From Mytilus trossulus (Eukaryota), in NCBI RefSeq assembly GCF_036588685.1, contig NC_086379.1:63054001-63118000 (forward strand): a stretch of DNA of 64,000 nt, written 5' to 3'. The notes under the pieces are model-generated. The model ran no database searches. It saw only the letters and a program-made list of their open reading frames with translations, and was not told where the DNA came from. Of the stretch, positions 809 through 42,333 are shown piece by piece (the stretch's first letter is position 1; the number at the start of each line of letters is the position of its first letter). A program made the position numbers and the translations under genes.

Positions 809-976
809 TATATTACTGTGCTAATAATATACATGTGTACATGCATGCCCTTATTATTAACAGTTAAGTTTTTCCTTATCAGAGAGAGCTGTGTTGTCTC
901 CATGGCAATCATACCACATCTTCTTATTTTCATATGTTACGTAATAGAACTTACTACCCTTCTGTATAATACTTAC

Positions 977-1130
977 ACGTAAAGCTTCATTCTCTGTCAT
1001 AAATTTATTTTTTTGACTTTCATTGTCTTTGTTTTTGGTTTCTAGCTGTTCCAATTGTGCTTCTAACTCTAGCTCTAACTCCCTGCTACTGATCTGAAAT
1101 TCTTCTAATTCTTCTTTTGTTTCTTCCAAA
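977..1130 (-). CDS. NDE1: Nuclear distribution protein nudE homolog (NDE1/NDEL1), coding exon 2
   Basis: Encodes LEETKEELEEFQISSRELELELEAQL, matching the NudE coiled-coil N-terminus. tttcag acceptor, gtaagt donor, 154 nt, phase-compatible with exon 1. The gene continues beyond the window start. Confidence 0.9.
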
Positions 1131-4100
1131 CTGAAATGGATAACACAATAAAATTCAAATTTTGTTAAGTTGAAATAAATCTTTTATTTATATAATTTTT
1201 AGAGAAAGCAAAACATGTTTGTCTTCAGATTTTAATTTGTTTTATTATAATATTAATCCCAATATGTATTACAACTTAATTATTATTACATGTACAAACT
1301 GCCTAATCTAAACCTTAATTTTGTATAAAAATCAATGGATCTTTATCACTTGTGTTATATTATAATGTCAACCCCATCTAAGGATTCTTTTTAGTTCCTG
1401 TTCACAATATTACATGTTAAGCATTTAAGCTAGTAAAGGGTATATTTTCAAAAACAATCATTCACAACTTATAAAATACACAGCAACATTTAGTTAGAGG
1501 GAGACATTTAGTGAAAAAAGGACATTAAAATTTGATGTCTTATTTACTTAAAAGATAGAGTACTTATGTACATTATGGAACAATACATATCTGAGGGGCT
1601 TGCTTGTGCAAGTTGCTTTAGCGGAGCAACATTTCAGCTTTTTTCCATAATAGAATAGTACCTCTTTCCTCCATTGAAATTTTTGTTTTGCATACTTCAT
1701 TCGCATAGGATTTTTCAACAAAATATTGAAAATATGCTTTGAAGTATTAATGCATTGTGAAAAACAAATATTCCATCAAATGAATTTTAGTCAAATATTA
1801 TTATGAATATCCTTTTCATTTTCAATACAAATTTTATTAAGTCTGATGCAGACACTTTTAGTCAAAGCGTTTCAACTGAGGTACTACACAGGCGTCAAAA
1901 GGAGTCATTATGGAGTAAAGGGGGTGGCGTCAATAGGCCTCATTATGGAGGAAAGGGTTAACGTCAAAATTCACTTTCTTCATCAAGGTCAATGTACCTT
2001 CAAAACATATCTGATGTGTATAATTTGCAAGTGGTTGTTTGTTAAGAAAAATTTCAGCCCCTATCCAATATACAATTGAAAACCTTTTTCCAAGTCAAAA
2101 TTTACTTTCATCAAGGTGAATGTCCCTGGAAGTTTCTTGTAAGATTATTATTAATCTTATCTAATCCTGATTATGATAGCAGCATGACATATTTGTCACT
2201 GAACATTAACCAAACAAAAGATAGACATCTGTAAATTAATTAAGTAAAAAGTTTGCAAATCATTGTTGACATTATGATTCATAATAAATGTATCAGGATC
2301 TTACACACAGTCAAAAGTTCTAATAGTTATGTAACACAAAATTACAGATAACCAGTAGCTACATGTTACCTAACAACTTTTTTTTCAGTATCAATACTTT
2401 TATTTTACGTATACTTATTAGCATTTTTAAAGGAAAACACTGGATATGCAACAACTTGGTTTGTATTACACTATTATTATAAACTTAAGGGGTTGATTAC
2501 ATATATACACAACTAATCTAGGTATATCACAGGTGGAGGATTAAAGTTGAACTTTCAAATAGTTTAAAGGTACCGATCACAGAGACAGAAATTCATTTAA
2601 TGTAACTATAACACATCTGGATGGAAAACTTCTCATATTCAACAATTGACAATTGCAAGCACTTAAACAAAACTTAAACTCGAAATCTAAGTCAAGAAAA
2701 TATATTCACAGCCAGTGTCAAAGATCTGCCTTATTCCTTTTACAATCTGTTTTTAAACAGAAATAAACTGACTTCATTGCTATTACTCACTCAGTGTACA
2801 AAAATAACTCAACATGAAAGGTGGCATTATCTAAATGTTAAACCTGTGATGCAAAAATATTGTACTACATTATCAGCTCATCCCAAATCATGATTTTGTT
2901 TCTTCTACACACCTATACACATTCATAGCTAATGGCCCACTCATATCAATTTAAGTTTGTATTTCTATGACCTGCCCTTGTTAATTTCAAAATGCAGTAA
3001 AAAAATCAAAAGATTCACTTCATACATTCTATTTGTCAGTGGCGGGGCCAGGAAATTTTCATAAGGGTGTTGCCCACTGACTGCATAAGATTGGGGCCTG
3101 CTCCAGTCATGCTTCAATGATTCCCTAAATAATCAACCAAGTTATTCCCACAAAATGGGGGGGGAGGGGGGAGACACCCTGGAAAACCATCTAAATCCAC
3201 CTCTGTTGACAAGCTATATTTGAAAAAGCATTTGATTCATACAGTTGTTTATTTTTAGATAAACACATAGTCAATGAAACCTTAGTACATTGTAAACAAT
3301 TAAGACATGTTCTAAGACAAATAACTTTTTTCTTTGATATGAAATGAATACAATTATAAAGTTGATTTCACTTGAATTATAAAGTTGATTTCACTTGAGG
3401 AAAAATATTTTGAAAAACAATAGAATAACCTTTTCTTTTGTGACATTGAAAACAAATAAGATTTGTTTCCTTTTTTCTTTTGTGACATTCTAATCAATGA
3501 AGTTCTTGTTCATTGATTTTAATATCTGATCAAATATGAAACAAAAGACATTTAAATCTTTGACTTAAAAAGTAATCCAATTTTAAATAATTCATTTAAT
3601 ATTTTAATATGTTTAATATCTATATATATACAAAAAGTCCTGTTGTACATGTATTTATTTGTTTAGTCTGATTGTAAGATATTTGACAAGAATGCTTACT
3701 GACTGTATTGATATTCTTCTTTAAATGTTTATGTTATCAAGGTGTCAAGGGGTTTATATTTGAACATGAACAGTTTAACCACATCAAGTATCTATTTTTC
3801 ATTTCATCAGTTGGTTTTCATATAAACATATATCACACATTTTGTGCAAGCATCAAATGAATGATAATGATCGATATTTCAGAAATTCAAAACATTAAAC
3901 TTCAAGAAAAGATGTGTACACTAAAATGTCTTATCTGCTGAAATATTGGAATCATTAGAAAGAGCATAATCTTCTAAGAAGTAAAACAGCATACTTCCAC
4001 AAGAAAAACAAAGGAAGTTACTGGTAACTAACAGGGTCTAAAAGATATAAATTATAAGATGATGGGTTGTAAATCAACCTACTTCACAACACTTCAGGTA

Positions 4101-14215: not shown

Positions 14216-16371
14216 CAATGCACGAGACAGACTTAAATTAGTCAATCCCAACCTTCATGAGAAAAATGTGACAAACATTTTCAATTTGGCTACTGATGTG
14301 TCAAATGCAGTTAACAGGAAGTTGTTGGGTAATAAATATGAAAACGCATCTCACGGTATAGCTAACTCCAGCTCATATAAATACTCAAACCAAATTTCAG
14401 AAATCCTTGTAATTTTGATCCTGAGAAAGATATCATTTCGGATGGACGGATGGGCAGACTATGCAGAGATAAAACAGTATACCCCCACTTTTTTAAAAGC
14501 AGGGGTATAAAAATCAATATAATATATGTACATTCGAAAAATAACATTTAGAATATACTATATGCACTTGATAAGAATTTTTAATACGAACATAGGGCTA
14601 AAAGCAGATTCTGAGATCATACATTTGAATCCCCGTAATGTGCTGCATGAAACTATGTGTTGTGGTATAAATGATTCCAATCATTTAAACTGTTACAGTA
14701 CATCGGATAAAATGAAAATCTATAAATATCTTGAGATGTTTGCATTTGCCTTAAATGAGTGTGGATTGCTATTTCTGGTTCGATTGTCTAAAAAGGAATC
14801 AAAAGGTATAATGTGAGGGACTGCAGTAATTTCGTGTATAGTTTTGGATAAGAAACAAGTCTGTATCTTACACGCCTAATTTTCAGTGGGTACTAATTTA
14901 AAACTGTCATTATTTAAGTAAATGAACTGGTGTTATGGAAGCGGTTATATCTGAAGCGGGCTTCTCGTTTATGTTCATTTTGTGAAATTTGCTGTTTTAG
15001 ATGTGGATCCCAAATGGTTGACCAATACTCTAAGTTTGGTCGGACAAGAGTTTTTAAATACATAAGCTTTGACTTTATGTGAATTTAAGATAATTCATAT
15101 ATACTGAAATATTCTTCTGTTGAGACAACTTTGTTTCTGGTGTATTTGTTGTGCGACACCCATAACAATAAGATATACGAAAAAGAAGATGTGGTTTGAT
15201 TGCCAAATGAGACAGCTCTTCACAAGAGACAAAATGACACATAAATTAACAACTATAAGTCACCGTACAGCCTTCAACAATGCGCAAAGCTCATACCGCA
15301 TAGTCAGCTATAAAAGACAATGTTAAAAAAAATTAACGGCCTATTTTTAATATGTACAAAATAGTGAACGAAAAACACATATGTTTCACAGTCACATGTA
15401 TATACAGGTTCCTAACTTGGGACACACAAGTCTATATATATCGAGTTATGTAGACCTTCAGGAGTTTCAGATTATTACAGAATAGCATCTGCAAACATTG
15501 ACATTTTTTTAGAGTCACTTGTCACTAGTTTACAGTTTTCTTTAAATATTTCTGGTAGATCAATTATATATTCATTAAATGAATTTGGACTCATATTATC
15601 TATCTCCTTGTAAAACTCCTTTGTAAGTAGAGACACATGGAGATATAGATCCAAACACGTTTAAGACTAATGCAACTTTCTGTTACAGCCGATTGCATTG
15701 AGTGTGTACATAGAGGTAGTATCTTTGGTTAGCTTGCTTGCATTGACTGACCTAATAGGGGCCCTTTCCAGACATGCTTCAGTGATTCACTTTATCTATC
15801 AAAGTCATCTTCGTATAATAAAGGAAAGTCGCAACAAACACATTCTAGATTGAGGTATATTTAAGCAATTGAAGAAACGGCACACCTGGAAAAGAGAGGC
15901 GCGCGAATGAAACCAAAGGGAAATAAGCATTGGAACATAACCTGGAAATGATTTATCTAGCAATCTGCTCAGTCTTATGTTCTATGTTGTATTATGGGTA
16001 CTGATGTGTGTCTGTTGGCCTTTTTTTTTATTGGCCATGAATTTGTCAGGTTTTTTTCGACTTATAAGATTGAATGTCCATTTTGATATTTTTCGCTTAT
16101 ACTTTGTGGATATATTTCACATATTTTCAAAGATCTGCCGTATATAGGTCATAAGCGAGTAGGGTGGGAAAGCTACTTTATAGCTCTTTTTTTTTAGCAC
16201 CAAGGCATCGCCTTTTATTTATTTTATCTATTTTATCAGGGCAAAAATAATGATTAAAATAGATGAAACAGTTTTCAATGTTTAATAGAAACGCAGATGA
16301 TAATGCATTTAATAACATATGTAATAAATAAAAAGCAAGAACACAGCAGATGATTTTATAAACTATAACAG

Positions 16372-16529
16372 TTAACATATCATACATGTTGCTTCTTTTT
16401 TATCACTAGGACAAAACCTCATATCTGGAGTTGATCTTAGATACCATTCTGGCCATGACCCATCGTATACGGGCACGTCTTCTTTCCCACATAAATAGGC
16501 AGCAAATGCTATGCAACAGGCAGTAAGAC
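16372..16529 (-). CDS. MPST: Rhodanese-family sulfurtransferase copy A (divergent MPST-like), exon 3
   Basis: ttttag acceptor; encodes (G)[28 protein letters not shown], the rhodanese C-terminal signature; ends ...EATCMIC*. Confidence 0.88.
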
Positions 16530-17075
16530 CTAAAACAGAAGTACTAAAATTGAGAATGGAAATATGGACTGTGTTTAAGAGACAACAAACAGAATTAAGA
16601 GCAGACAACAGATGAAGGCAAACATGCAATGGGTCTTCAATGCATCGAGAAACCCTAAACCAAAATATATACTAGTTAAATGATAAACTCCGAAATATAC
16701 ACAAGAAACTAAAATTGAAAATCATATATAAGAAACACATATCATAGAACAAAGGATGTTGGGTATCGTTCCAAGACACATGTCTCTTACAATGTGGAAC
16801 ATTTTTTTCTATCTAGGTCGATAAACGGTAACCAGCAAAATAACCTTTTATAGATTGTGACTTGGATGGAAAGTTGTATCATTAGCGCTCATGTAACATC
16901 TTCCTATATCTATTGACAGCAAATATTATCTCACTACATGACAGTCAGGTAGCGGCTCTTTTCGTTGGACTTTTCAAGAACAGGTGTTCAATATTTTTTA
17001 ATTACGAATATTTTAAATTTTTTAACTATCTTAAATATTGTTGAATGGGTCTTATTTCTGTGACTATAACCCCAC

Positions 17076-17365
17076 CACAGTAATTCAGTGGTTGTCGTTT
17101 GTTAATGTGTTACATATTTGTTTTTCGTTCATTTCTTTTATATAAATAAAGGCGTTAGTTTTCTCGTTTGAATTGTTTTACATTGTCTTATCGGGGCCTT
17201 TTATAGCTGACTATGCGATGTTGGCTTTGTTCATTGTTTTAGGCTGTATATATACGGTGACCTAGCTGTAGTTGTTAATGTCTGTGTCATGTTGGTCACT
17301 TGTGTGTCATGTTGGTCACTTGTGGACAGTTGTCTCATTGGCAATCATACCATATCTTCTTTTTT
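17076..17365. mobile_element. SINE-like interspersed repeat, high copy in this window
   Basis: Ends ttgtctcattggcaatcataccatatcttcttttt. Related copies near 430, 895, 5350, 15180, 24780, 37835, 42070, 55350 and 58660. Confidence 0.6.
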
Positions 17366-17585
17366 ATATATAGTATAAAAGAAGGGACACAAAAAAGTTC
17401 TTAACTAATCCTTATACCATGGTCATTTTTATTATCGGCAATTTCTGAGATTATTAGTTCGATTTAAGACAATCGGATTTAAAGTCACTTCCGGTTAGAT
17501 TTGCTACAAATGCACACGAAAGATAAATATTCTAAGGAAGCAAGTAAAAGATCTAATTGGATTATAGACAAGAAACATTGCTTAC

Positions 17586-17744
17586 CTGAAGCACAAGAGG
17601 ATACTAATGGTTTTGATAGATCAATTCCAGTTTCATTGAAAAGTTTTTTAAGCTCTTTTACATCAAGCATAACACCGTTTTCCTTATCCACAATATCTTG
17701 ATAACAGAGATTCTTTGAATATGGTATATGACCAGACTCTAAAC
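17586..17744 (-). CDS. MPST: Sulfurtransferase copy A, exon 2
   Basis: 159 nt; GLESGHIPYS...KPLVSSCAS(G) with the catalytic Cys; AG/GT boundaries, phase 1-1. Confidence 0.88.
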
Positions 17745-19054
17745 CTATAATAAAACAGAAAAGTAAAACTGTGAGTTACTGCTCACTGAGTGATACCCCC
17801 GCCGAAATAGTTCGGCAAACAGGTTGTTGAGTGATGAATCTGAAAACCCATCACATGGTATAGCTTACTCATACATGTACATAAACCCTGAAACCAAATA
17901 TATCAGAAATCCCTGTATTGTAATTCCTGAGAAAATGTGACGTTAATTTTCAACTTGGCTAATTATGTGTAAAATGATACAAGTGTTCGTTAAACGGGAA
18001 ATTGTTGAGTGATGAAGATGAGAACGCATCACACGGTATAACTGACTTATATAAACCCTGACACCAATTTCAGAAATATCATGGCCTTGTCAACTAGTTC
18101 CTGAGAAAATTATGACAAAAATATTAATGGGACAGACTGACAGACTGACTGAATGGATGGACAGACAGAGGTAAAACAGTATACCGCCATTTTTTGTTTA
18201 TGTCAAATCTTATAACATATATATACTTTTGTTCAAACGTAAGTACACAGTAGGAGATCAATGATTATACCAACATTTTTTTTAGTTATTGTAACAGATT
18301 TCCAAAAAAGGGTAATCAAAGCATGTTGAAAATATCATTTGTCCTTTGAAATAAAAAAAGCTATCGTATTTAACATGCAACCAAATATAACTTTGCCAAA
18401 CTTTGAATACCGAGATTTCCGGAAAATCATATTACAGTGGAACTGCTTACCTCGTAGTATTTGTTTTTTTTCAAAGGAATTGAGTTTACTGACTGGTTGA
18501 CTAAGACTATCCTGTCTGAATTTTGGAAGTGCTCATGGAATTGTAAGAGGTTAAATATTGTATATACATTTACAATTCAGTTATTATAAGACATGTCATT
18601 TACGGTTAATGAACGAGCTGAGTCTTGGAAGTATTTGATACTCTGAGAAGAGACAGTTCAGTTAGGCCAGATAATAGAACTATGTCCCCGTACAACTTGT
18701 TTGTATGCTGGAGTTCTGAATGCTTAGTCCAGTAGTCGTCAGTTCTAAAAAGGCATTCATTTCGTAAAAACTTGTTAATAGATGTCTCAATTTTACCTAT
18801 TTTTTCAATTCAGATGGACTATTTTCTTCGTTCCAGTTTTGTATAGTCCTGGAAGTTAGCTTTTTCTTTGGTCGACTTATTGGAGATGTTTGCATTCCGT
18901 TATGAATAATCGATGGTGTGGATCTGTTCTAAAGTGTTATACTAATTTTAGATGTGTCGGAACAACCCTAATATTAAACTGGACCCCTGTGGTGTTCACT
19001 TATCTCTACGCTCGGTGAGAAGCTATAGACGGAACGGCGGACAGTTTACCATTT

Positions 19055-19130
19055 CAATCGTAACTACTCGGCCATTCTCGTTACGCAGTTATTTCTTCGT
19101 GCAACCAGAAAGGCCGAGTTGTTCCGATTG
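19055..19130. mobile_element. 76-bp palindromic MITE with 10-bp TSD
   Basis: tttaccattt|CAATCG...CGATTG|tttaccattt; absent from the paralogous intron of copy B. Confidence 0.75.
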
Positions 19131-19154
19131 TTTACCATTTATAACTTAAAATAC

Positions 19155-19743
19155 CTTCTCTTGCTTCCGGTTTGATTCCCATAAATTGTCCTCCTCCTCG
19201 AGCATCCATTAACTGAAACGAATTATCTTTCAAGTTTTTCACAATATCCTCGTATGACTTTACTAAATGTGGGTGATAAATACCGTCGAATATTGTTTTC
19301 GGAACCTGAACAACTTCCGATGTCGTCGGTAAACCCTCAGAGCACCATTTCATAAAACCACCGTCAAGCACTGACACCATTTCATGTCCAAAAACTCTGA
19401 ACATCCACCAAATTCTTGGAGCAGAGAAAAATCCGTAGTTTACTCCATTATCATAAACAACAATATGAGTGCTATTATCAATACCTAAGTTGCCTACATA
19501 CTGCTCAAAGCGTTTTGTGTCTGGTAACATGAGACCGTAAGGAGAGGATTTATCACAACATTCTTTGATATCAAAATATAACGCTCCCGGGATATGCTTT
19601 TCTTCATATTCTTTTCGACCGTTTCTGTTCGAAGATGGCAAGTGAAAAGAAGAGTCAAGAATCCTAATATCTTTTGGATCTCCACTTTTCATTACATTAT
19701 GCAACCATTCAGTTGTGACCAGAGCACTTGCTTTCGTCAACAT
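19155..19743 (-). CDS. MPST: Sulfurtransferase copy A, coding exon 1 (joined protein 301 aa)
   Basis: MLTKASALVTTEWL...HIPGA.YFD...APRIWWMFRVFGH...LDGG; 589 nt followed by a gtattt donor. Confidence 0.9.
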
Positions 19744-22700
19744 TCTACAAAAGAAAATACAAATGAAAGGCACGACTGTACATGTAAATGATAACTGAAG
19801 TGAACAATCGACTTGTAACGCTCACTTTCAATTCATTATTGTATTGGCTGTTTGAATTGTAATGCAAGATTTCATGTTTTAAGCAAGGAAATTCTATATA
19901 AACTGAAATAGGTCTTCAATAACTACAATACTGGAAACTATCAAGAAACCTGTTATACCCGGCCATGATTGTCAGCCTTCAATTGCACTGCTGTGGCATC
20001 AATTTTAGGATGGGTTCCATTGTACTGTTGGATCAAACACATGCAGCCTGCATGGTAACCAAATGCCGTCAAATATCTTAGTACGGTAAAGTTGATTGCA
20101 GTTTTTGTCATGAGTTGAACACAATCCCCTAATACAGTATATACAGTCAACCACTAAAACACAAACTCATGAGTACCACACACAGGGGCGGATCCAGCCA
20201 TTTTAAAAAAGGGGGTTCTCAACCCAGGATAAAGGGGGGTCCAGCTATACGTCCCCATTCAAATGCATTGATCGGCCCAAATTCGCTAAATTCGATGTGT
20301 TTTATGACCATTGCCTGCTTTACTCTTGTAGCTTTTTTTCATTTGTCCTATTGAATAGTCGATAACCATGATAACTAAAGAAGCCATGATCAAAGACAGA
20401 ATTGATAAATGTGTCGTACTGACGTAAGGGACATAACTCTATGCATATTTTAACTAATTAAATAAAACTTGCTAACTAATAATTTAATTTAAATATAAGA
20501 TCAAAAGTCAATTCAAAATGTTTAAACACTTTTGTAAACAAACTGACTAGTCCAGATAATTATGACATCTTGAAAGGCTCTTATATTAATTTTTGTTTAC
20601 GCCTTACATCGTCGAAGGCATTGGAAGGCGCTGAGACTACTATAACTAGTAGTCTCAGGAAGGCGTCAAAGCAAAAATATAAAATAACCTTCAAAGACGT
20701 CATAATTATTTGGACGAACTGAAATCCTGCGGAAAAGTGTGGCTTTCAAAACCTAATTTATGAACTAAATATGCAATCTACATACAAAATATAAAATCAC
20801 AACTTACAGAATAATAAATTAGAAAATAAGGTTTCATGTCTATATGTTATGAAGCTTTCGATACTAAATATTGCTCAATCAATAAGTAACTTTGAAACTT
20901 TTACATACAATATGAATTATTTTCGGACTTTCACTAAACTTTTGAAAATAACTATTTTAAAATCACCTATATATTTCTAAACATAGAATCGATGTGTATT
21001 TAATAAATTCTTGAAAAGTTTATCAATTATTTACATAAAAAAAAGTATCGCGTCCTAAGCGTAACCAACACAAAAATAATTAATCTCAATGGAAACGAAA
21101 TAAAAGGATTTTAATCTATGCAAAATATATACAATTAATCTTAAGTGAAATTGATAAAAATAATTTTAGTTCAGCTTTACCAAAAATATAAAGTAATTAA
21201 AACGCTTTAATTCAAATGAGACAAAAATACAAAAAAATATAATTCAACTTACCTGGTGTAAAACAAGAGAAATTCGGGTAAATGAAGATGTTTATTCTTG
21301 TAAATCAGTAATCAAAGTAACCGTTGGAAACCTTAATTTTTTCCGTGCGGGCGTGGTCAAATGATCACTGATTTCTTAACTTTCTCCTGTTTTCACCAAT
21401 CAAAATTTACCTTTTATCACCTTGACCACGACCTATTTTCACTGGTTGGTCAATAATCAAGTCATGGGTGACAGGTGTTATAGTTAACAATTTCACACAT
21501 GAGTAACAGGAAAAGGTTATTTACAAAACCCTTAATTTACATGTAAGGTACATAATCCAAATTAAATCATTTAGAACTTATATGTCTCTTTGTTATCTTG
21601 CTTAATTACGGAATCTAGATATTTAAGTTGTATGTCATTCTTCTTTATTTGTTATGGTAAAATTATGAATTGCCAAAGACAAAATTTTAGGTATAACAAA
21701 TGTAAAACATTTATTTTTAGAACATCAGACATAAATATCAGGAGCAATTTTACAATACGTAAGAACATATTAACTTAGCCATTCGTTAACACGACTATAG
21801 ACATGATAAAGGTGAAATATTTTTCTCATCTTTCTGAAAGACAAGAGCATTGGTGAATTACTTTCCTTTTTGTTTTTTGTGTACAAGCATACAAATAAAG
21901 GCAACAGTAGTATACCGCTGTTCGAAACTCATAAATTACAAAACCGGGTTACAAACTAAAACGGAGGGAAACGTTGAAACATTGAAAAGAAATGTAAAAT
22001 AATACCATTAGCTTTGTAACTATTAGCTGAAAGACTATATAATATTACAGGATGCATGTCACTAAAATAACTGACTAATTTGAATAAAACAAAGCATATG
22101 TTTATAATTTATAAATTTGTAAACATTAAATAGATTTGAACTTATATCACTACCCTTGTTTCCGACTACTGTGCCTATAGAGATATATTCAGATATATAT
22201 AGAAACGTTTTAGACCAATCAAACTTTCGTTTTAGGTTTTTCTTTTTACCCAAACAATCAATGTAGGATACTTAACCAGTCAGTCTGAACCATAAGGAAT
22301 TCCTATCTATATATATATATATATATATATGCGAATTGAAAAAGTCTTATATCATACATTGACATTTTGATGCAATAAAACACAATGAATTTAAATTGGT
22401 CCTTAGAAAAGAAAGAAAAAGACGTATATAACTATGGTTTCTGTTAAAAATTATGTTAAGCTCTATCCTTTGAGAAACACTCAAACTTTCAAAATCACAT
22501 AGAATATTCAGTCATGTGCCATTTTTCGACAAAGACGGTATAATTTAGTCACGGCATTATCAGAAGTGCATTGTGTATGTCATGATTTTGGTTGACAGCC
22601 CAAGAAACACATTTAGATCTGGGACTTTTACTAGAACTAAAGATTGAAAGACTTTTTGATAAAAAAAAAATTCTAGCGTGACATAAATTCAGGGAAACTT

Positions 22701-23301: not shown

Positions 23302-23488
23302 ATGTCTGCCATAACATTTGTTTTGTTATCATTTATCAGTGTTTCTTCTGGACTTCTTGAAGGTTTACCATCTCAAGAGGAGCTGCATAGTGACGCAACT
23401 CTTCAGCTTCTCATATCGGAAGTTACTAGACTAAGCAATGAACTCAAAGAGGCTCAGGAGAAAATTACCACATTGGACAAACAAGTCG
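23302..23488 (+). CDS. Secreted C1q-domain-containing protein, exon 1 (signal peptide and short coiled coil)
   Basis: MSAITFVLLSFISVSSG hydrophobic signal, then heptads LISEVTRLSNELKEAQEKITTLDKQV; G|gtaaaa donor, phase 1. Confidence 0.85.
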
Positions 23489-23739
23489 GTAAAAAACACT
23501 TCTTAAGACATCTACTCTCGTGATCTCTTTTTCTTTCGAGAAATTAACATCTCATACAATTGGTTTTTTTATCGTTTATTCTACTTGATTTTTATAAATA
23601 TTTAAAATTATATTATTGTTTATTTCAATACAAAAAAAAATAAAATTACTGTTATGTGTATTCTTAAACAAATTTAAATGTTCCAAAACAAAGGGTACTA
23701 AATTTACTTTCAAACGATTGTCAGTGTTTTATTTTCCAG

Positions 23740-24191
23740 ACAAGCTAACGAATAAAGATCGTGACATTGCGTTCTTTGCTTACCTAGGACCTGGTTTGGT
23801 AAACCCTAGTCCTGGAACAACAATAGTTTTCAATGAACCAATGACGAATTCAGGCAACAATTATGATCCGCAACATGGAGTGTTCACGGCCTCTGTCAAT
23901 GGAACATATAATTTTCACCTAATTGCCGCCTCCCCCGAGAACAGCGACCCATCCCATCAGTTGCATCTATACATCACAAAGAACAAGCCTGGATCCTACG
24001 TGTCATATGGTTGGTTGGATAGAACGACAGACCATTGGGTACAGACCAGTGCTTCTGCTGTTCTTCATTTGATTCAAGGAGACAGGATTTGGGTCGAAGT
24101 TGGGACAGTCGTAGGCTCTCACACCCTTGCAGGACACAGCGATAACAGACCACACACATATTGGTCTGGTTTTCTGATCCATGCTGATTAA
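23740..24191 (+). CDS. C1q-domain-containing protein, exon 2 (globular C1q domain; 212 aa total)
   Basis: ttccag acceptor; IAFFAYL..TIVFNEPMTNSGNNYDPQHGVFTASVNGTYNF...LHLIQGDRIWV...WSGFLI; AATAAA at about 24203. Confidence 0.92.
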
Positions 24192-25586
24192 AACATTTAT
24201 CAAATAAAACAACTAAAGATTAATATTGTTAACCTTTCTTAGATCATTGATTTCATTTCCATATTTGTACATCACTTGTTTTTGTACTGCCCATCGGCGG
24301 ATCCATAGTAATGGGAGGGAGGCGCCCACCCCCTTTTTGTGTGAAAATTTTGTTGATTATATAGGGAATCACTGAAGCGTTTTAGGAGTGGCCAACAGTA
24401 TTTTGAAGTCTAGCAAAACAAAATTCGATAGAATCATTTCGATTCTGATAGGAATATTTAGACCTTTTGTAATGCAAAGCGGACCTACAATACACATTCA
24501 AAAGGCAACCATTTTGATTTGGTGAATCAAAGACTAAACTAAAAATATCAACATATATATACTCAATATAATTTAAATAAATTACATATATACTGAAACT
24601 TACTTTTAGAATAATTACTTTTTATATTATATTTCATATATAGCGAGCAAGCTTTTAAAAACAACAAAACTGTCCGTTTCGACGTTGTTAAGACTATAAC
24701 TGACGTTGCAATTTCAATGTTTTGTCATAATTTTGTTTAGCTTAATGTTTGAAATAAATCAGTATAAATCATGCCGCTGATTTCCTCGTTTGAATTGTAT
24801 TCAGGAACGTTTATAGCTGACTATACAGTATATATGAGTGTTGATCATTGATGAAGGCCGCATTGTGCCCTACATGCATGCAGTTGCTTACATCCAAGTC
24901 ATTTGGATTCTAGTTGAAAATTGTCTCATTGACAATCATATGTACGTCTCCTTTTTTATATACTAGTAAATACGAAAACATTTTAGTTGCTGAAGCATAT
25001 AATTCCCCTTCATCTATCAAAGTCACATTGGTAAAGGAAAGTCACAACAAACACAATCTAGTTTGTGGTATATTTAAGTAATTGAAGAAACGGCACACCT
25101 GGAAAAGAGAGCGAATGAAACATTTACTTGGAACAAAACCTGGAAATGACTAATCTAGCAATCGGCTCAGTCTTTAGTTTTGTATGTATTGTTTCGGGTG
25201 CTGTTTCGTGCCTGTTACCCTTTTTCTTTAATAGCCATGGAGTTATCAGTTTATTTTCGACTTATCAGATTGAATGTTCATTTGATATTTGTCGCTTCTA
25301 TTTTGTGAATACATTTGACAGATTTTCATTTAATCGACGAGGTTCTAGTATTTGGACTAATAAACGAGTAGGGTCGAAACACTACTTTATAGCTTTTATT
25401 TAGAACCAAGCCATCCCCTTTTTTCTATTTCATTTATTTTCATCAGGGCAAACACGATAATTAAAATAGCTGAAACAGTTTTCAATGTTTAATAGAAACG
25501 CAGACAAGAATGCATTTAATAACATATGTAATAAATAAATAGCAAGAACACAGCAGATCATTTTATAAACTATAGCAGTAAACGTA

Positions 25587-25732
25587 TCATGTAGATTCTT
25601 TTTTATCACTAGGACACACTCTCATATCTGGAGATGATCTTTGGTACCATTCTGTCCATGACCCATCGTATACGGGCACGTCTTCTTTCTCGCACAAATA
25701 GGCAGCAAATGCTGTGCAACACGCAGTTACAC
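25587..25732 (-). CDS. MPST: 3-mercaptopyruvate sulfurtransferase copy B, exon 3
   Basis: (G)[28 protein letters not shown]...KKEST*; ttttag acceptor. Confidence 0.88.
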
Positions 25733-25936
25733 CTAAAACAGAAGTAATAACATTGAGAATGGAAAAAGGGAATGTCTCAAAGAGACAAAACCCCGACTAA
25801 AGAGCAGACAACAGCCGAAGGCCACCAATGGGTCTTCAATGTAGTGACGTGCTTAAGCTGGCCCCTAAACAAAAAAGTATATACAAGTTCAATGATAATA
25901 GACGTAAAACTAAACTCCCGGTAAAATATACAAAAG

Positions 25937-25967: not shown

Positions 25968-27672
25968 TAATTCAGTAACTGTATCAGTTTATTTTCACAA
26001 ACTGATCCACGCTTAAATAGATTGAATGTTGATTGTTGCTATTTTTAGACATTATATATTCATGTTTTTGACCACACTGTAAAACCTATTTTATTATATG
26101 GTAGCGAAATATGGGGGATGTTTAATTCTCTTTCCTCTAAATGTAAGAAGGAAGATATATCTTTTGAAAAATTATATTCAGGTTTACCCTGTGAGAAACT
26201 TCATATAAAATTTTGTAAATTTATGCTTGGGGTACACAAGAAAACAACAAATGCTGCAGTGTTATCTGAACTTGGAAGATTTCCAATATATTTTAATATT
26301 ATAAAAGGAATGTTATTGTACTGGTATAGATTAGAGAATTTAGGTAATAATTTTCCTCTATTAAAAGAGGCATATACACAATCAAAGACACTACATCACA
26401 TGAATATAACATCATGGTATGGTTCAATAAATGTTGTTTTTAAAATACTTGGTATTGACTATACAAATGCCATAAATGCTCCATTTTGTGAATCCTTATA
26501 CAAATTTAAGAAATATATACAAACCAAGCTATCAATATTGTTTATTAGCTGTTGGAAAAAACAAATAGATAAATTTTCAGACAGTAAACTGAAAACCTAC
26601 CTTTTATATAAAACAAATTTTGGTTTTGAAAAATATCTAACATCGATCAAGAATTTTGAACTTAGAAGAAGTTTTACTAAATTACGTGTATCTTCTCATA
26701 GATTACAAATATAATTAGGTAGATATCAGGGTATTCCCCGAATTAACAGAATATGTAATAAATGTTCTTCCAATACTGTCGAAGATGAGGCTCATTTTCT
26801 ATTTGATTGTAACAAATTTGAGGATGATAGGAATTGTATGTTAGCTAGTATTGCACAATATAATTCTTATTTTAATCATATGAACAGTCAAAGCAAAATT
26901 ATCTGGTTATTTAGAGTAGAAAATGTTGACTTACTTAAAAATAATATGTAATTTTATATACAAACATCTTCCTTAGTGAAGATTAGTTAAAGGAAATCTA
27001 TGTGCGTATATACATTTGATTGGACATAGAAAATTATATTCATCTGAATATCACAAACATACTAGCCGATTAAAAAAAAAAAGTAATTGTTAAGATATAT
27101 TATTTATTCAAATGTTCTCTTATATCCTTGAGGCATCGTCCCCTGGTATCAACTGCATTCAAGTTACCTATGATGCTTCCTTGTTTGCATTTGATACAGG
27201 TAGGAAAGAGACATTTACACACATTTACATGACTATGGCCCATAAGGTATCGCCCCCTGGTGTCAGCTGCCTTTAGGAAACCATAATGCTTTCCTATTTG
27301 CTGCTGACACAGGATGAGTCATGGACATGTTTAATTTCTACTTTCTTTTTGGCTAATTATTATATATTTAATTGATCCAACTTTTTGTGTACTATACATA
27401 TGTGGATATCTATTTTTCTTTTTTTTCTTTTTGGGCTGCTTGTTTGTTATCTATATCAACCACACTTGCAATAAAATGCATTAGTATTAAAAAAAAAACA
27501 TACTATAGATTCTTTATCTATGTATTCTTTAAGAACTTAAATAGTTCTCGTTTAACTTTTCTTTTTTTTTTATCTCATTGTTTGTATTGTATTATGAAAA
27601 AATTATTGATGTTGTAATGTTTATGCCCTTTGGGGCCCATAATTGGAAAATAAAATATCTTATCTTATCTTA
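25963..27672 (+). mobile_element. 5'-truncated non-LTR retrotransposon (CR1/L2 group) in intron 2 of MPST copy B
   Basis: ORF2 C-terminal motifs PILLYGSEIWG, ELGRFP, LRVSSHRLQI*LGRY...RIC..C...EDEAHFLFDC with an in-frame TAA at 26712. The 3' end is AATAAA plus (ATCTT)n, and the element sits within a (TA)n tract. Confidence 0.85.
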
Positions 27673-29898: not shown

Positions 29899-30057
29899 CT
29901 GAACCACAAGTGGATACCAAAGGTTTTGATAGATCAATTCCAGTTTCATTGAAAAGTTTTTTAATTTCTTTTACATCGAGCATTACACCGCTTTCCTTAT
30001 CCACAATATCTTGGTAACAGAGATTCTTAGAATCTGGTATATGACCAGGCTCTATAC
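29899..30057 (-). CDS. MPST: MPST copy B, exon 2
   Basis: 159 nt; GIEPGHIPDS...KPLVSTCGS(G); joins exon 3 to give the canonical CGSGVT loop. Confidence 0.9.
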
Positions 30058-30514: not shown

Positions 30515-31103
30515 CTTCTCTTGGTTCCGGTTTGGTTCCCATAAATCGCCCTTCTCCTCGAGCATCCATTAATTGAAACGAATTATCTTTTAAGTTGTTC
30601 GCAATATCCTCGTATGACTTTACTAAATGAGGGTGATAAAGTCCGTGGAATATTGTTTTCGGAACCTGAACAACTTCCGATGTCGTCGGTAAACCCTCAG
30701 AGCACCATTTCATAAAACCACCATCAAGCACCGACACCGTTTCATGTCCAAAAACTCTGAACATCCACCAAATTCTTGGAGCAGAAAAAAACCCGTAGTT
30801 TACACTGTTATCATAAACAACAACATGAGTGCTAAGATCAATACCTAAGTCGCCTGCATAACGCTCAAAGTGTTTTGTGTCCGGTAACATGTGACCGTAT
30901 GGAGAGGATTTATCACAGCATTCGTCAATATCAAAATATGACGCTCCCGGGATATGCTTTTCTTGATATTCTTTTCGACCGTTTCTGTTCGAAGATGGCA
31001 AGTGAAAAGAAGAGTCAAGAATCCTAATGTCTTTTGGAACTCCACTTTTCAAAACATTATGCAACCATTTAGTTGTGACCAGAGCACTTGCTTTCGTCAA
31101 CAT
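30515..31103 (-). CDS. MPST: MPST copy B, coding exon 1 (joined protein 297 aa)
   Basis: 589 nt; FDIDEC...PYGHMLP...DARGEGRF..KPEPRE, with MPST-type residues intact. Confidence 0.92.
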
Positions 31104-32652
31104 TCTAGAAAAGAAAATACAAAAGGAAAGGTAAAACTATTTAATATAACATATATTTGTCAGGAGCAATTCCTACTGAACATAAACGGTCAGGAGATAA
31201 ATGACAGATCATTTCTACTGTGCACCCAGCACTAAATATTATATCTAACATGGAAGCCAATTCAACGGAAGATCTCTCAATAGCAAATGTATAGAGCTAC
31301 GCCCCCAGATCCGACATGCATTGTCAGGAGACTCAGTACCAAACAGAAGATTAGAAAATTAAGCAAGTTACAAGTACACATACCAAATATGCGGCCACGC
31401 ATAATGTAACAAAGTTACATGGTCATATGCATGTGGTGTTAAAGAGAACATTTACTAAACTGTTTATGTTCTTATTTCCTAATCACAGGACCCTTTATGT
31501 CATTTCGAGATGGATGTTAACAATTAATGTTTAAAATCATACAGCAAACTATCAGGAATTTCCTGTATCCGGGTGACTTTTACTTTTTCTTGTCAATTTT
31601 CCGCTTATACCATGGAGTCACGATCTCTTCATCGTCAAACCTAGAAAAACGTGTGCACAAGTAAGCATCCAAATTGGAGAATCTGAAATTAACAGGCCAT
31701 GATAAAAAGGCGGACAGGACTGAGGTTTTAAATTAGATTATAGCTTACAAATCATTGTTTTATTTTAATACTCCAATCCATAAGACACTGAAACCATCTT
31801 CTATTAATAGGATCAACTTTTACGCAAAGACAGACATTCAGTTGAAGCACAGGTACTTGCTTTCTATCCATTGCAAGATCTACTATCCCTTTATAGGAAT
31901 CCCTTTCTAGGAATAGTAGATCTTGTAATAGAAAATAAGTGCCTTTGAGTTGAAGGCCGAATGCAACAAAATATGATTACTTGGGGTACCCCCATGAAGG
32001 GCCTCCTCGGTACGGTACTGATCGAGACGCTGTCCGCCGGTAATTCAAGAGTTTTAAACATAAACATATATCAGAAGTTTTTCTCAGATAATTCGCGGGA
32101 TAGACAAACGTTTAATGTCATCAAAAGTTACGAAAAAAAACTCGATGCATGATTGTGCTATTCGGTTTAGAACATGAGTGGCGTGGGGACTGTTTGATTA
32201 CTATGATATTTCGGACGTGACCCACAAATTACACTACAGTTGACACAGTTTTGAGTCCTCTGACCTAATTATGAGTGTTTTAATTTGAAACGTACACTTA
32301 TTAATTTCAGTAGAAATGAAGTTATGTAAATAGAATTTATTCGCGCAAAAAGTTTTTAACCAGCTGGTAACTAAGTCATTCGTTTACGCGACATTTAAGG
32401 TGAAACTTTTTCTCACCTTTCTGAAGGACAAGACTAAGCATTGACGAATTACTTCCCTTTTTGTTTTTGTGTACATGCATACAACATTGAAAAGAAATGT
32501 AAAATAGTATCATTAGCTTTGTAAATATTAGCTTAAAGACTATATAAAATAATAAGAGGCATGTCACTAATATATCTTACTAATTTGAATTAAACAAAGC
32601 AAATGTTTATAATTTGTATTAACGTAAGCGACATAACTTCTTTTGTGTGAAA

Positions 32653-32799
32653 ATGTCGTCCGACGAGGAATCGGATGAAATCGAAGATCAAGAAAAATTA
32701 GAAGAAAAAGTAGACTTTACATCGTCCAGACAGGCCAAAAAAGAAGCAAGACTTAATCAAATTATTTTCGAAAACGAACATAAAGCCAAAATAAGAAAA
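32653..32799 (+). CDS. SIRT7: NAD-dependent deacylase sirtuin-7, exon 1
   Basis: MSSDEESDE...RQAKKEARL...KIRK|gtatgc; 147 nt, phase 0. Confidence 0.75.
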
Positions 32800-34044
32800 G
32801 TATGCAAACATTTCGCACTACTTTGTATAGCATACACTTTTACTCTTACAACTCCAAATATATCATGTAACTTTATAGGCACAAAATGTGCACCATGTAA
32901 CACAGAGGTCCTGGTGGAGACAAGCAATTTTGCAAGAAAAATCATGCTCTCGGGTTACAATTTGTTACACACAGCACAGGGGCTTGTTACAATTGCCGGG
33001 TTTACTATCCATACGAACCCCTAAAAAAACACAAGGGAGGAAGCTAATTTGCGACAATGCTTCAAATTATTGTTGTAAATTTTTTCTAAGACTTTCACTT
33101 ACTTTGTGACCTGGATAAATATGTTCCCACTTGAATTATCTCTCCAATGACATATATTTGTTACCTTAATTAACCTATATAACTATTGTAATCCTTAAAA
33201 CAAACTCAACATTTCTGAAATAGAACGAATCGAGGCCCTAAATTTGAAAATGAGTAATTGATTTGATTTAACCATTCTTCCTTGGCTGAATAACAATGTC
33301 TATTTTTTTCTCAAGTGCTGCAGGAAGAACTTGTATTCTACAGTCAACCCTTTATTATATGATACAAAACCGTATATGTATTCTTATCCTGCTTCTATTT
33401 GAAGGGAAGGGCAACATTCAAATCATTGTTTATGTTGCAGTTCACTTTGTGATCCGCTATAAAATGCTGTTGATTTTAATGAAAAGTATCATCGGTAAAA
33501 TAGAGATACATGTTTTCAAGTGTTAACTATAAATTGTCTGCTAAAACATTAGTTCTTACTGTACATTGTAGGAAAATAAAACATGTATTTGTACTCGCTA
33601 CAAAAAAGGAGAAAGCTCTGCAACCATTGCATTTCGAATTCTCTCTCATTTAGATTAAAGCTCATACGAATAAATGTTGCATATTCAGACAATGAACGAA
33701 TTTAATAATTTTAATTTTTAATGACAAATGTAATCTACACCAATTATCCACATATGCAATACACTCTAAATTGTTAAAAATTCATTTTACCTGAAATACA
33801 ATATTTGCAAAACATAAATTACCTTTATAGCAATTATTACTTGGTCAGACTTGTTAATTTAGTAACAATCACTTGAAGTCTTCAGCCTACTGATAAATTG
33901 TAAAGCCTATCAGATATGTTACACCTTAGCATAATAGCTTTTGCAAAAAGACTTTTGAAACCTCAATATTTTAATACTTTGATTCCTACCCTTTGAACCA
34001 TAAGCTTGATACACCATTGTACTTAAGCGAACAAACAACCATCA

Positions 34045-39431: not shown

Positions 39432-39668
39432 ATTTGTTACAGTTGCCGGCCACATCAAGAGTACATCCGACTATTTGATGTGACTGAGAAGACAGGGGTG
39501 AGACGTCACCAGACAGACAGGAATTGTCATACCTGTAAACAGCCACTTAAGGATACTATAGTACACTTTGGAGAGAAGGGAGGGATGAAATGTCCATACA
39601 GATGGAAAGAGGCTGCAAAAGCTGCAGATAGATGTGATATAATCCTATGTTTAGGATCTAGTCTCAAG
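39432..39668 (+). CDS. SIRT7: SIRT7 exon 7, using the first donor
   Basis: ICYSC...CHTC Zn ligands, DTIVHFGE, DIILCLGSSLK|gttggt; 237 nt. Confidence 0.9.
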
Positions 39669-41975: not shown

Positions 41976-42333
41976 AACGGGCTCGTCTAGATATTCCACA
42001 TGATATAGTCAGTATCAAAAACGAAACTACCTATTATTCTATATGTATTCTGGGATTATGTAAAAATGAGAAAATGTGGTATGATTGCTAATCGGACAAC
42101 TCTCCATCAGACCAGACCTAATATTGCATAGATGTAAGCCACTATAGGTCAATGTACAGCATTCAATTATGATTTAAACCCTTATCCTGTGTTAAGGATC
42201 TTGGTGTAAAGTAATTTTTTATAATACTGATAATACTTTCTCAAGAACATAATTTTTAACCGTAGTTTTGATGTTATAGTTATACCCATATTGAATTCTT
42301 TTCATAATATGACTATATTGTCTGGTTTTTTAG

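What the first reader, a model, noticed from the sequence alone, without database searches (positions are those of the whole stretch)
16372..19743. Sulfurtransferase copy A has a rewired active site but keeps its catalytic Cys
Seen: the paralogs are very similar overall, yet A differs at functional positions: FDIDEC>FDIKEC, PYGHMLP>PYGLMLP, GEGRF>GGGQF, PEPRE>PEARE and loop CGSGVT>CASGLT. The ORF and splice sites are intact. Known: in mammalian MPST these positions correspond to the Asp and His of the Ser-His-Asp triad (human D63/H74/S250) and the mercaptopyruvate-binding Arg (about R188). The MPST loop is CGSGVT and the rhodanese loop is CRKGVT. Inference: B is a canonical MPST, while A is neither MPST nor TST and may have a new sulfur donor/acceptor specificity.
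Basis: partly seen in the sequence, partly recalled or inferred. Interest (0 to 1): 0.75.

Follow-up and report, generated by a model that had tools for sequence, protein, structure and literature searches.

The report
Rewired mussel sulfurtransferase with prenylation tail
Blue mussels carry a second, spliced copy of a sulfur-transfer enzyme that keeps its catalytic cysteine, has replaced the residues its relatives use to grip and activate their substrate, and has gained a four-residue tail predicted to attach a lipid anchor, so it likely does a different sulfur-handling job at membranes, although slow decay of a spare copy is not excluded.

Summary
Observation confirmed. The window is Mytilus trossulus (protein match) and holds two tandem MPST-family genes, both intact: A (301 aa) and B (297 aa), 38 residues apart. 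B has every MPST site. A keeps Cys247, Ser249, Arg195, Glu193 and Thr252 but replaced Asp60, His71 and Arg186 (human D63, H74, R188). Those three, plus 194 and L251, are shared by A copies of M. edulis and M. galloprovincialis; G184 and the CASG loop are not. Loss of the triad is common in the family (rhodanese lacks it); loss of Arg186 is rare (196 of 201 near homologues keep it). A is spliced in RNA-type runs. Against a new function: A changes about three times faster than B, some alleles hit conserved residues, and one transcript contig appears to lack the insertion. Best reading: a selected, non-MPST persulfide carrier, probably membrane-anchored (0.45); relaxed spare copy 0.30. New variant of a known kind; no activity has been measured.

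The parts
19155..19744 (-). Copy A, first coding exon (ATG at 19743-19741; residues 1-196). Holds E12, K60 (19566-19564), L71 (19533-19531), G184, Q186 (19188-19186), A194 (19164-19162), R195
   Evidence: contigs of runs X1 and X4 with 1-4 other letters
17586..17744 (-). Copy A, second coding exon; ends in the catalytic loop C247 (17595-17593), A248, S249
   Evidence: splice joints 19153/17742 and 17584/16527 in run X1
16372..16529 (-). Copy A, last coding exon: L251, P276, L280, tail and stop
16372..16387 (-). New C-terminal CMIC (16386-16375) and stop (16374-16372); the 4-nt insertion relative to B lies at about 16387-16384
   Evidence: same ending in P0123 and P0124
21253..21345 (-). Non-coding first exon of A (donor at 21253/21252; upper end not determined); no counterpart found upstream of B
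   Evidence: joint 21253/19744 skipping 1508 nt, GT-AG, in run X1; no ATG below 21465 and no blastn match to the B region
30515..31104 (-). Copy B, first coding exon, with D60, H71, R186, P194, R195
29899..30057 (-). Copy B, second coding exon, ending in C247-G248-S249
25587..25732 (-). Copy B, last coding exon, ending KKEST-stop
   Evidence: joint 29897/25730 in runs X11 and X13
15790..22113 (-). Extent of the duplicated unit around A: 15790-16686 matches 25008-25898 (80%), 21771-22113 matches 32368-32618 (79-89%)
23302..24191 (+). C1q-domain gene lying between the two copies, outside the duplicated unit
   Evidence: Pfam PF00386, E 3.8e-18; ORFs

Best explanation
Copy A is an intact, spliced tandem duplicate of the mussel MPST gene that keeps Cys247 and has replaced Asp60, His71 and Arg186, so it likely no longer uses 3-mercaptopyruvate well and likely works as a persulfide carrier, which its new CMIC tail is predicted to hold at membranes by farnesylation. 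Steps: (1) shown: duplication before the trossulus/edulis split, ORF and splicing kept; (2) shown: the shared early changes fall on the donor-binding pocket (60, 71, 186, 194, 251) while the Cys loop, Glu193, Arg195, Ser249 and Thr252 stay; (3) inferred from rat mutants and from the rhodanese literature: without Arg186 the carboxylate of 3-mercaptopyruvate is poorly bound, and without Arg186, Arg248 and Lys249 thiosulfate is too; (4) inferred: Cys247 still sits in the helix-dipole loop and can carry a persulfide taken from a less charged donor (H2S/polysulfide, a small persulfide, or the persulfide of B) and pass it to protein thiols; (5) shown: a 4-nt insertion plus two substitutions turned 3' UTR into CMIC-stop; (6) predicted: farnesylation, cleavage and methylation at Cys298 move A to the cytosolic face of membranes, while B keeps the ancestral job.
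For: Intact A-type proteins in three species: 5 of the 10 members of cluster 1; complete 301-aa forms in 3 of these 5. A clade support 100/99; a trossulus-only A+B clade is rejected, p-AU 0.001. GT-AG joints across all three introns of A in run X1. Pairwise A/B dN 0.062, dS 0.179, ratio 0.35, Fisher P 3e-5 against equal rates. The 38 positions that vary among four A sequences avoid conserved columns: 7 of 38 lie in columns at least 80% conserved against 108 of 296 overall (P 0.009; mean-conservation test P 0.002). 3 of 9 active-site positions are among 13 shared A changes (P 0.005, post hoc). Arg186 is kept in 196 of 201 near full-length homologues, the Gln only in A. Rat R187G (the same Arg) made 12% of wild-type H2S from 3-mercaptopyruvate (PMC4594004, passages) and behaved like C247S in thiol consumption (PMC5585270, passages). 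AlphaFold model of A matches human MPST 4jgt, TM 0.86-0.93, rmsd 2.0. CMIC scores positive in 4 of 4 prenylation and 2 of 2 cleavage predictors, where 15% of all 8000 Cxxx are predicted cleaved (PMC9231725, supplement row and passages); its Ydj1 heat-map score is 3.28 against a cutoff of 3 (PMC10320760). No CaaX-like end in any non-A protein among 354 of at least 250 aa. The N-terminal 24 residues carry net +1 to +2 in three A proteins against +4 in three B-type proteins, which fits, weakly, a loss of mitochondrial import. MPST persulfides pass directly to protein thiols (PMC10060159, passages).
Against: No activity, donor, acceptor, lipid modification or location was measured. A changes faster than B: 28 against 9 polarised changes (binomial P 0.003), rough ratio 0.55 against 0.18 if silent changes are split evenly; 29 against 10 differences between trossulus and edulis. 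M. edulis A (P0123) carries W13C and G128D at columns 92-100% conserved. In run X1 the A contig over 16269-16527 is 4 letters shorter than the window, with 7 other letters; the only A/B indel there is the tail insertion, and the 3 listed differences are all B states, so this allele probably lacks CMIC (the gap position is not printed). Identity of CMIC in three species is no proof of selection (P 0.58 for any four sites). The direct Ydj1 enrichment of CMIC is modest (0.72) and comes from yeast. In the H2S-to-H2S3 assay R187G kept 61.5% but the dead C247S mutant kept about half, so that assay says little about an Arg-independent activity. Arg186 also helps hold the persulfide in rhodanese (PMC10433728), so its loss may weaken any transfer. 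Annotated A isoforms drop the catalytic Cys (P0004) or residues 155-197 (P0006).
Confidence: 0.45

Rival explanations
1. A is a spare copy under relaxed constraint. It lost the MPST donor site because B covers that job, is kept folded and transcribed by weak selection or inertia, and the CMIC tail is a chance read-through.
For: About threefold faster protein change than B; alleles with W13C, G128D, C210R, G248A or G248S; annotated isoforms without the catalytic Cys or the lid loop; probable tail-less allele in run X1; no A-type protein among the 1 M. californianus and 2 M. coruscus NCBI proteins.
Against: No stop or frameshift in 5 A-type proteins of three species (2 are partial models); variation among A sequences avoids conserved columns (P 0.009); early changes concentrate on the pocket (P 0.005, post hoc); a canonical-type CaaX from four random codons has a rough chance of 0.4% (post hoc).
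Confidence: 0.3
2. A is still an MPST, tuned down: it uses 3-mercaptopyruvate with high Km and low turnover, in other tissues or another compartment than B (division of labour, not new chemistry).
For: Arg195, Glu193, Ser249, Thr252 and a neutral CG/ASG loop are kept; rat R187G retains 12% H2S and 56% H2S3 output from 3-mercaptopyruvate; many homologues lack the triad His (61 of 201); spliced A contigs dominate in X1 and X4 and B contigs in X11 and X13 (weak, contig depth does not rank genes and the runs were found with A).
Against: Three MPST-specific residues are lost together; R187G behaved like the dead C247S mutant in a second study.
Confidence: 0.13
3. The tail works as a CxxC dithiol, not as a CaaX box: Cys298 and Cys301 on a flexible arm take the sulfur from Cys247 persulfide and release H2S, standing in for thioredoxin.
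For: CMIC is formally CxxC; residues 294-301 are disordered in the model (pLDDT under 50); vicinal dithiols accept MPST sulfur and release H2S (PMC10060159).
Against: The motif is at the very C-terminus and all predictors call it prenylated and cleaved, which would block Cys298 and remove Cys301; reach to the active site could not be measured; a better acceptor does not explain loss of the donor site.
Confidence: 0.07
4. A is a non-catalytic or nearly non-catalytic rhodanese-fold protein, a membrane-tethered sulfane-sulfur store or adaptor.
For: An annotated isoform lacks Cys247 but keeps CMIC (P0004); an MPST-family protein sits as an accessory subunit on yeast complex I (6yj5).
Against: Cys247 and its loop are kept in all 4 A sequences that cover them fully and in the fifth as far as it goes; that retention is also expected by chance (P 0.44 for six sites).
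Confidence: 0.05

Closest known systems
Mammalian 3-mercaptopyruvate sulfurtransferase (MPST; PDB 4jgt, 3olh, 5wqj)
   Same: Two rhodanese domains (PF00581), same fold (TM 0.86-0.93), catalytic Cys in the second domain, Glu195, Arg197, Ser250, Thr253 equivalents kept; neutral loop.
   Different: A lacks the equivalents of Asp63, His74 and Arg188, has Ala/Val for Pro196 and Leu for Val252, and ends in CMIC. B differs from human MPST in the pocket only by F for W36 and F for Y108.
Rhodanese / thiosulfate sulfurtransferase (TST; PDB 1boh, 8agf)
   Same: Same fold; no triad Asp/His (Glu and Val in bovine, Glu and Met in human); one A allele has Glu60 like TST (P0128).
   Different: TST keeps Arg186 and has the cationic CRKGVT loop that binds thiosulfate (PMC9369223); A has neither.
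Uncharacterised two-domain sulfurtransferases with a remodelled pocket
   Same: 16 of 131 cluster representatives with the catalytic Cys have another residue at Arg186, 10 of them also at 60 and 71; two unnamed exon-1 fragments, P0013 and P0014, have lost both arginines.
   Different: They are distant (under 50% identical, alignment of this loop unsure) and none ends in a CaaX-like motif; A arose recently beside an intact paralogue.
Canonical CaaX proteins (Ras type)
   Same: Cys four residues from the end, Met and Ile at a1 and a2; predicted prenylated and cleaved.
   Different: The motif arose from 3' UTR; only two lysines upstream and no second anchor is evident; not tested in mussel.
Thiosulfate/3-mercaptopyruvate sulfurtransferase cluster of PMC9063065
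   Same: Listed among ortholog clusters with Ka/Ks 1.3-1.9 in M. edulis and M. coruscus (passage).
   Different: [quoted passage not shown] That it is this locus is likely but unverified, and my A/B ratio is 0.35.

Membership tests
Two-domain rhodanese superfamily | Two PF00581 domains, catalytic Cys in the second, rhodanese fold | tested here: met
   Cys247
MPST | CG[S/T]GVT loop (PMC7995614) | tested here: not met
   A: CASGLT, CGSGLT or CSSGLT. B: met
MPST | Ser-His-Asp triad (PMC12926118; the number D63 is recalled) | tested here: not met
   A has S249, L71, K60 or E60. B: met
MPST | Arg188 and Arg197 binding the substrate (PMC12926118) | tested here: not met
   Q186 in 5 of 5 A sequences; R195 kept. 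B: met
MPST | Turnover of 3-mercaptopyruvate | not testable with these tools
   Needs an assay
TST / rhodanese | CRKGVT cationic loop (PMC9369223) | tested here: not met
   Neutral loop in A
TST / rhodanese | Arg186 (PMC10433728) | tested here: not met
   Q186
CaaX prenylated protein | C-terminal Cys-aliphatic-aliphatic-X accepted by farnesyltransferase | tested here: met
   CMIC; published predictor tables and yeast heat-map score. Sequence criterion only
CaaX prenylated protein | Motif fixed in the gene | tested here: inconclusive
   Present in 3 of 3 complete A proteins; probably absent from the X1 transcript contig
CaaX prenylated protein | Isoprenyl group on the Cys in vivo | not testable with these tools
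   Needs labelling or mass spectrometry
Pseudogene | Broken frame or splice sites, no transcript, neutral change | tested here: not met
   Intact frame and sites, spliced contigs, variation avoids conserved columns; lineage-specific dN/dS not obtained

The most novel reading that the evidence does not exclude
Blue mussels evolved a prenylated, membrane-anchored sulfurtransferase in a few steps: a tandem MPST duplicate lost its 3-mercaptopyruvate site under selection and built a farnesylation signal de novo from its 3' UTR, giving a dedicated persulfide donor for membrane proteins, with the anchor possibly still segregating among alleles.
Probability: 0.25. Interest if true: 0.75.

Novelty: new variant of a known kind. 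Interest (0 to 1): 0.5.

Why it matters
Which enzymes write protein persulfides, and how they find their targets, is an open question (PMC10433728, abstract and passages). A natural pair that differs at 38 residues, one a full MPST and one stripped of the donor site but keeping the Cys loop, separates donor use from persulfide transfer and can be tested with two recombinant proteins. If the tail is farnesylated it would be a sulfurtransferase aimed at membranes by a lipid anchor, of which I found no example in 354 homologues or in the titles and abstract openings of the 20 papers listed of 32, and a clear case of a targeting signal born from untranslated sequence. It may bear on how intertidal mussels deal with sulfide and hypoxia (inference). 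If A is only decaying, it is an ordinary young duplicate.

Tried and rejected
No whole genome is held for this window, so further copies and synteny outside the window were not examined. A metagenome scan for relatives gave 33 loci, all 35-46% identical, none of a mussel, so there was no outgroup DNA and no branch dN/dS. A search for short C-terminal fragments gave 6 proteins, none of Mytilus. Alleles in DNA runs were not obtained, so fixation of Q186 and of the tail in populations is open. Low model confidence at residues 186-200 of A is not a sign of a broken lid: B shows the same dip with the same 22-row alignment. Gene conversion between A and B in the window is not shown by tract length (longest identical run 75 nt, P 0.09), though trossulus A and B share K44, Q146, P269. 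The date of the duplication relative to M. californianus and M. coruscus is unresolved (A+B clade p-AU 0.26; best tree 36/19). The X1 joint from B exon 1 to A exon 2 was considered as a chimeric gene and rejected: that contig carries the Q186 letter, so it is more simply a second A allele laid on B. X4 has no cover on B exons; that is no proof of absence. TST-like convergence was rejected because Arg186 and the cationic loop are missing. Three look-ups in earlier findings returned nothing. Paper searches for a mussel MPST study and a prenylated sulfurtransferase showed none by title or abstract opening; one search missed PMC9063065 because of its spelling, so such searches can miss mentions. 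PMC11304957 was opened only for two library-frequency rows and is not used.
Full report
What is in the window. The first coding exon of copy A matches a Mytilus trossulus protein at 100% (P0003, annotated 3-mercaptopyruvate sulfurtransferase-like, 301 aa). Two genes lie in tandem on the minus strand with a C1q-domain gene between them. A has coding exons 19743-19155, 17744-17586 and 16529-16372; B has 31103-30515, 30057-29899 and 25732-25587. All splice sites are AG/GT and both frames are open. Homology extends to flanks on both sides, so the unit was duplicated as DNA. The proteins differ at 38 of 297 positions; dN 0.062, dS 0.179, ratio 0.35.

The observation. Counting along the alignment of B with mouse MPST (5wqj), D60, H71, R186, R195, C247 and S249 are D63, H74, R188, R197, C248 and S250. 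A review places the substrate beside Arg188 and Arg197 and names a Ser-His-Asp triad (PMC12926118, passages); His74 is named as a pocket residue in PMC13050340 (passages); the number D63 is recalled and comes from no call.

Which changes are shared. The 90% cluster of A holds 10 proteins, 5 of A type (M. trossulus 1, M. edulis 2, M. galloprovincialis 2) and 5 of B type. All 5 A types have E12, L71 and Q186; position 60 is K in 4 and E in 1; position 194 is A in 4 and V in 1; the 4 that reach exon 3 have L251, I256, P276 and L280. G184 and A248 occur only in the window's allele (S248 in one other). So the shared A state is GxGQF and C[G/A/S]SGLT, not CASGLT. The A sequences form one clade (100/99) and a trossulus-only origin is rejected (p-AU 0.001); placement against M. 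californianus and M. coruscus is unresolved. The one M. californianus and two M. coruscus NCBI proteins are B type; the two M. coruscus proteins are identical over 300 residues and their accession numbers are two apart, as are those of an M. edulis A/B pair, which hints at an older duplication homogenised in that species (inference, synteny not seen).

How unusual the changes are. Among 201 near full-length homologues from two searches, Asp60 is kept in 133, His71 in 140 and Arg186 in 196; the exceptions at 186 are the four A proteins and one Ser. Bovine rhodanese has Glu and Val at the triad positions. So triad loss alone is ordinary and R186Q is the rare change. Further out it is not unique: of 150 representatives at 50% identity, 131 align a catalytic Cys, 16 of them have another residue at 186 and 10 differ at 60, 71 and 186 together (the loop alignment is unsure at that distance).

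A ends in CMIC-stop, B in KKEST-stop. The DNA alignment shows a 4-nt insertion at B's stop codon; B's 3' UTR read in A's frame gives MIRLLL-stop, so two further substitutions make the last Cys and the stop (direction inferred from the ST-stop ending of B, M. californianus and M. coruscus). The complete A proteins of M. edulis and M. galloprovincialis end the same way. In a published table of all 8000 Cxxx motifs CMIC is positive in 4 of 4 prenylation and 2 of 2 cleavage predictors, against 15% of motifs predicted cleaved (PMC9231725, supplement rows and passages; one supplement of pictures could not be read). In a yeast screen its enrichment is 0.72, its Ydj1 heat-map score 3.28 (cutoff 3) and its Ras heat-map score 15.4 (no cutoff seen) (PMC10320760, supplement rows and passages). 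No non-A protein among 354 of at least 250 aa has a CaaX-like end. The motif is also a CxxC.

Expression. Twenty of 24 listed runs hold words of A exon 1. I laid 4 of them, all contigs, RNA by guess. Run X1 has GT-AG joints across all three A introns, including a non-coding first exon ending at 21253; X13 has the exon 1-2 joint; X4 has contigs over exon 1. The B exon 2-3 joint appears in X11 and X13 and not in X1 or X4. This shows spliced A RNA; it does not rank the genes. One result runs against my reading: the X1 contig over 16269-16527 has 255 letters for 259, with 7 other letters. The only A/B indel in that range is the tail insertion, the three listed differences are B states, and seven B-type letters from 16417 to 16352 (leaving out the two of codon 288) would account for the count. 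That allele probably lacks CMIC; the table does not print the gap.

Selection. A is under some constraint: only 7 of the 38 positions that vary among four A sequences lie in columns at least 80% conserved in 79 non-Mytilus homologues, against 108 of 296 overall (P 0.009). It is looser than B: 28 against 9 polarised changes (P 0.003), 29 against 10 differences between trossulus and edulis, and a rough ratio of 0.55 against 0.18. The M. edulis reference allele has W13C and G128D. Annotated isoforms skip exon 2 or use an inner donor in exon 1. A genome paper lists a thiosulfate/3-mercaptopyruvate sulfurtransferase among clusters with Ka/Ks 1.3-1.9 in M. edulis and M. coruscus, without ids (PMC9063065, passages, outline, section 23, one supplement searched).

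Mechanism. The fold is intact (pLDDT 83; TM 0.86-0.93 to human MPST). Rat R187G gave 12% of the H2S and 56% of the H2S3 from 3-mercaptopyruvate (PMC4594004, passages) and resembled C247S in a second study (PMC5585270, passages); A adds loss of the triad, so it is inferred to be a poor MPST. Thiosulfate use rests on the cationic loop and Arg186 (PMC9369223, PMC10433728, passages), so it is inferred to be a poor TST. What remains is a Cys in the helix-dipole loop, which can carry a persulfide and hand it to proteins (PMC10060159, passages). I commit to a persulfide carrier fed by a less charged donor or by B, anchored by farnesylation where the tail is present (0.45). The donor is the weakest step. 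Rivals: relaxed spare copy 0.30, tuned-down MPST 0.13, CxxC acceptor arm 0.07, non-catalytic store 0.05.

Membership and novelty. A belongs to the two-domain rhodanese superfamily, descends from MPST, and fails the sequence tests for MPST (signature from PMC7995614, passage) and for TST. B passes the MPST tests. The gene is annotated, and remodelled pockets exist elsewhere in the family; the combination with a CaaX tail born from 3' UTR was not seen in the homologues or in searches, which cover open-access texts only. Verdict: new variant of a known kind, interest 0.5; the boldest reading has probability 0.25 and would deserve 0.75.

Noticed in passing
window 39627-41976: A 51-nt unit repeated 46 times (95% matches) begins inside a Sir2-family exon (PF02146; SIRT7-like is a recalled label). 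Each copy repeats the exon's 3' end with a GT, and the frame stays open for 822 codons, so there are dozens of candidate donor sites or a repeat-expanded protein.
   Followed up: no
P0005 and P0132 (M. coruscus): Two B-type proteins with accession numbers two apart on one contig are identical over 300 residues: possibly the same tandem pair homogenised by gene conversion, or a newer duplication or assembly artefact.
   Followed up: partly
window 19284-19279 (A exon 1, codons 154-155): A silent GGA-to-GGT difference at Gly154 makes an inner splice donor; annotated isoform P0006 uses it and loses residues 155-197. Isoform P0004 skips exon 2, loses Cys247 and keeps CMIC.
   Followed up: partly
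P0013, P0014 (unnamed Logan proteins): Exon-1-sized relatives, 57-58% identical to A, that keep Asp60 and His71 but have Phe at 186 and Ile at 195: an independent loss of both substrate arginines.
   Followed up: no
clusters of P0009 and P0010 (unnamed JGI/ENA/Logan proteins): Relatives about 65% identical to A with Ser at the triad Asp and His or Lys at the triad His, varying among members.
   Followed up: no
window 26049-27650: A 221-codon ORF in B's last intron with no Pfam match, covered by long contigs in all four runs; it looks like a retroelement remnant (recalled resemblance).
   Followed up: no
window 21771-22113 and 32368-32618: The duplicated upstream segment lies, in B's case, just before an ORF on the opposite strand (32623-33024, no Pfam match), so B probably sits at the original head-to-head position; A has a first exon with no match near B.
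   Followed up: partly
window 857-1183: Minus-strand coiled-coil exon with no Pfam match; resembles nudE/NDEL1 (recalled).
   Followed up: no
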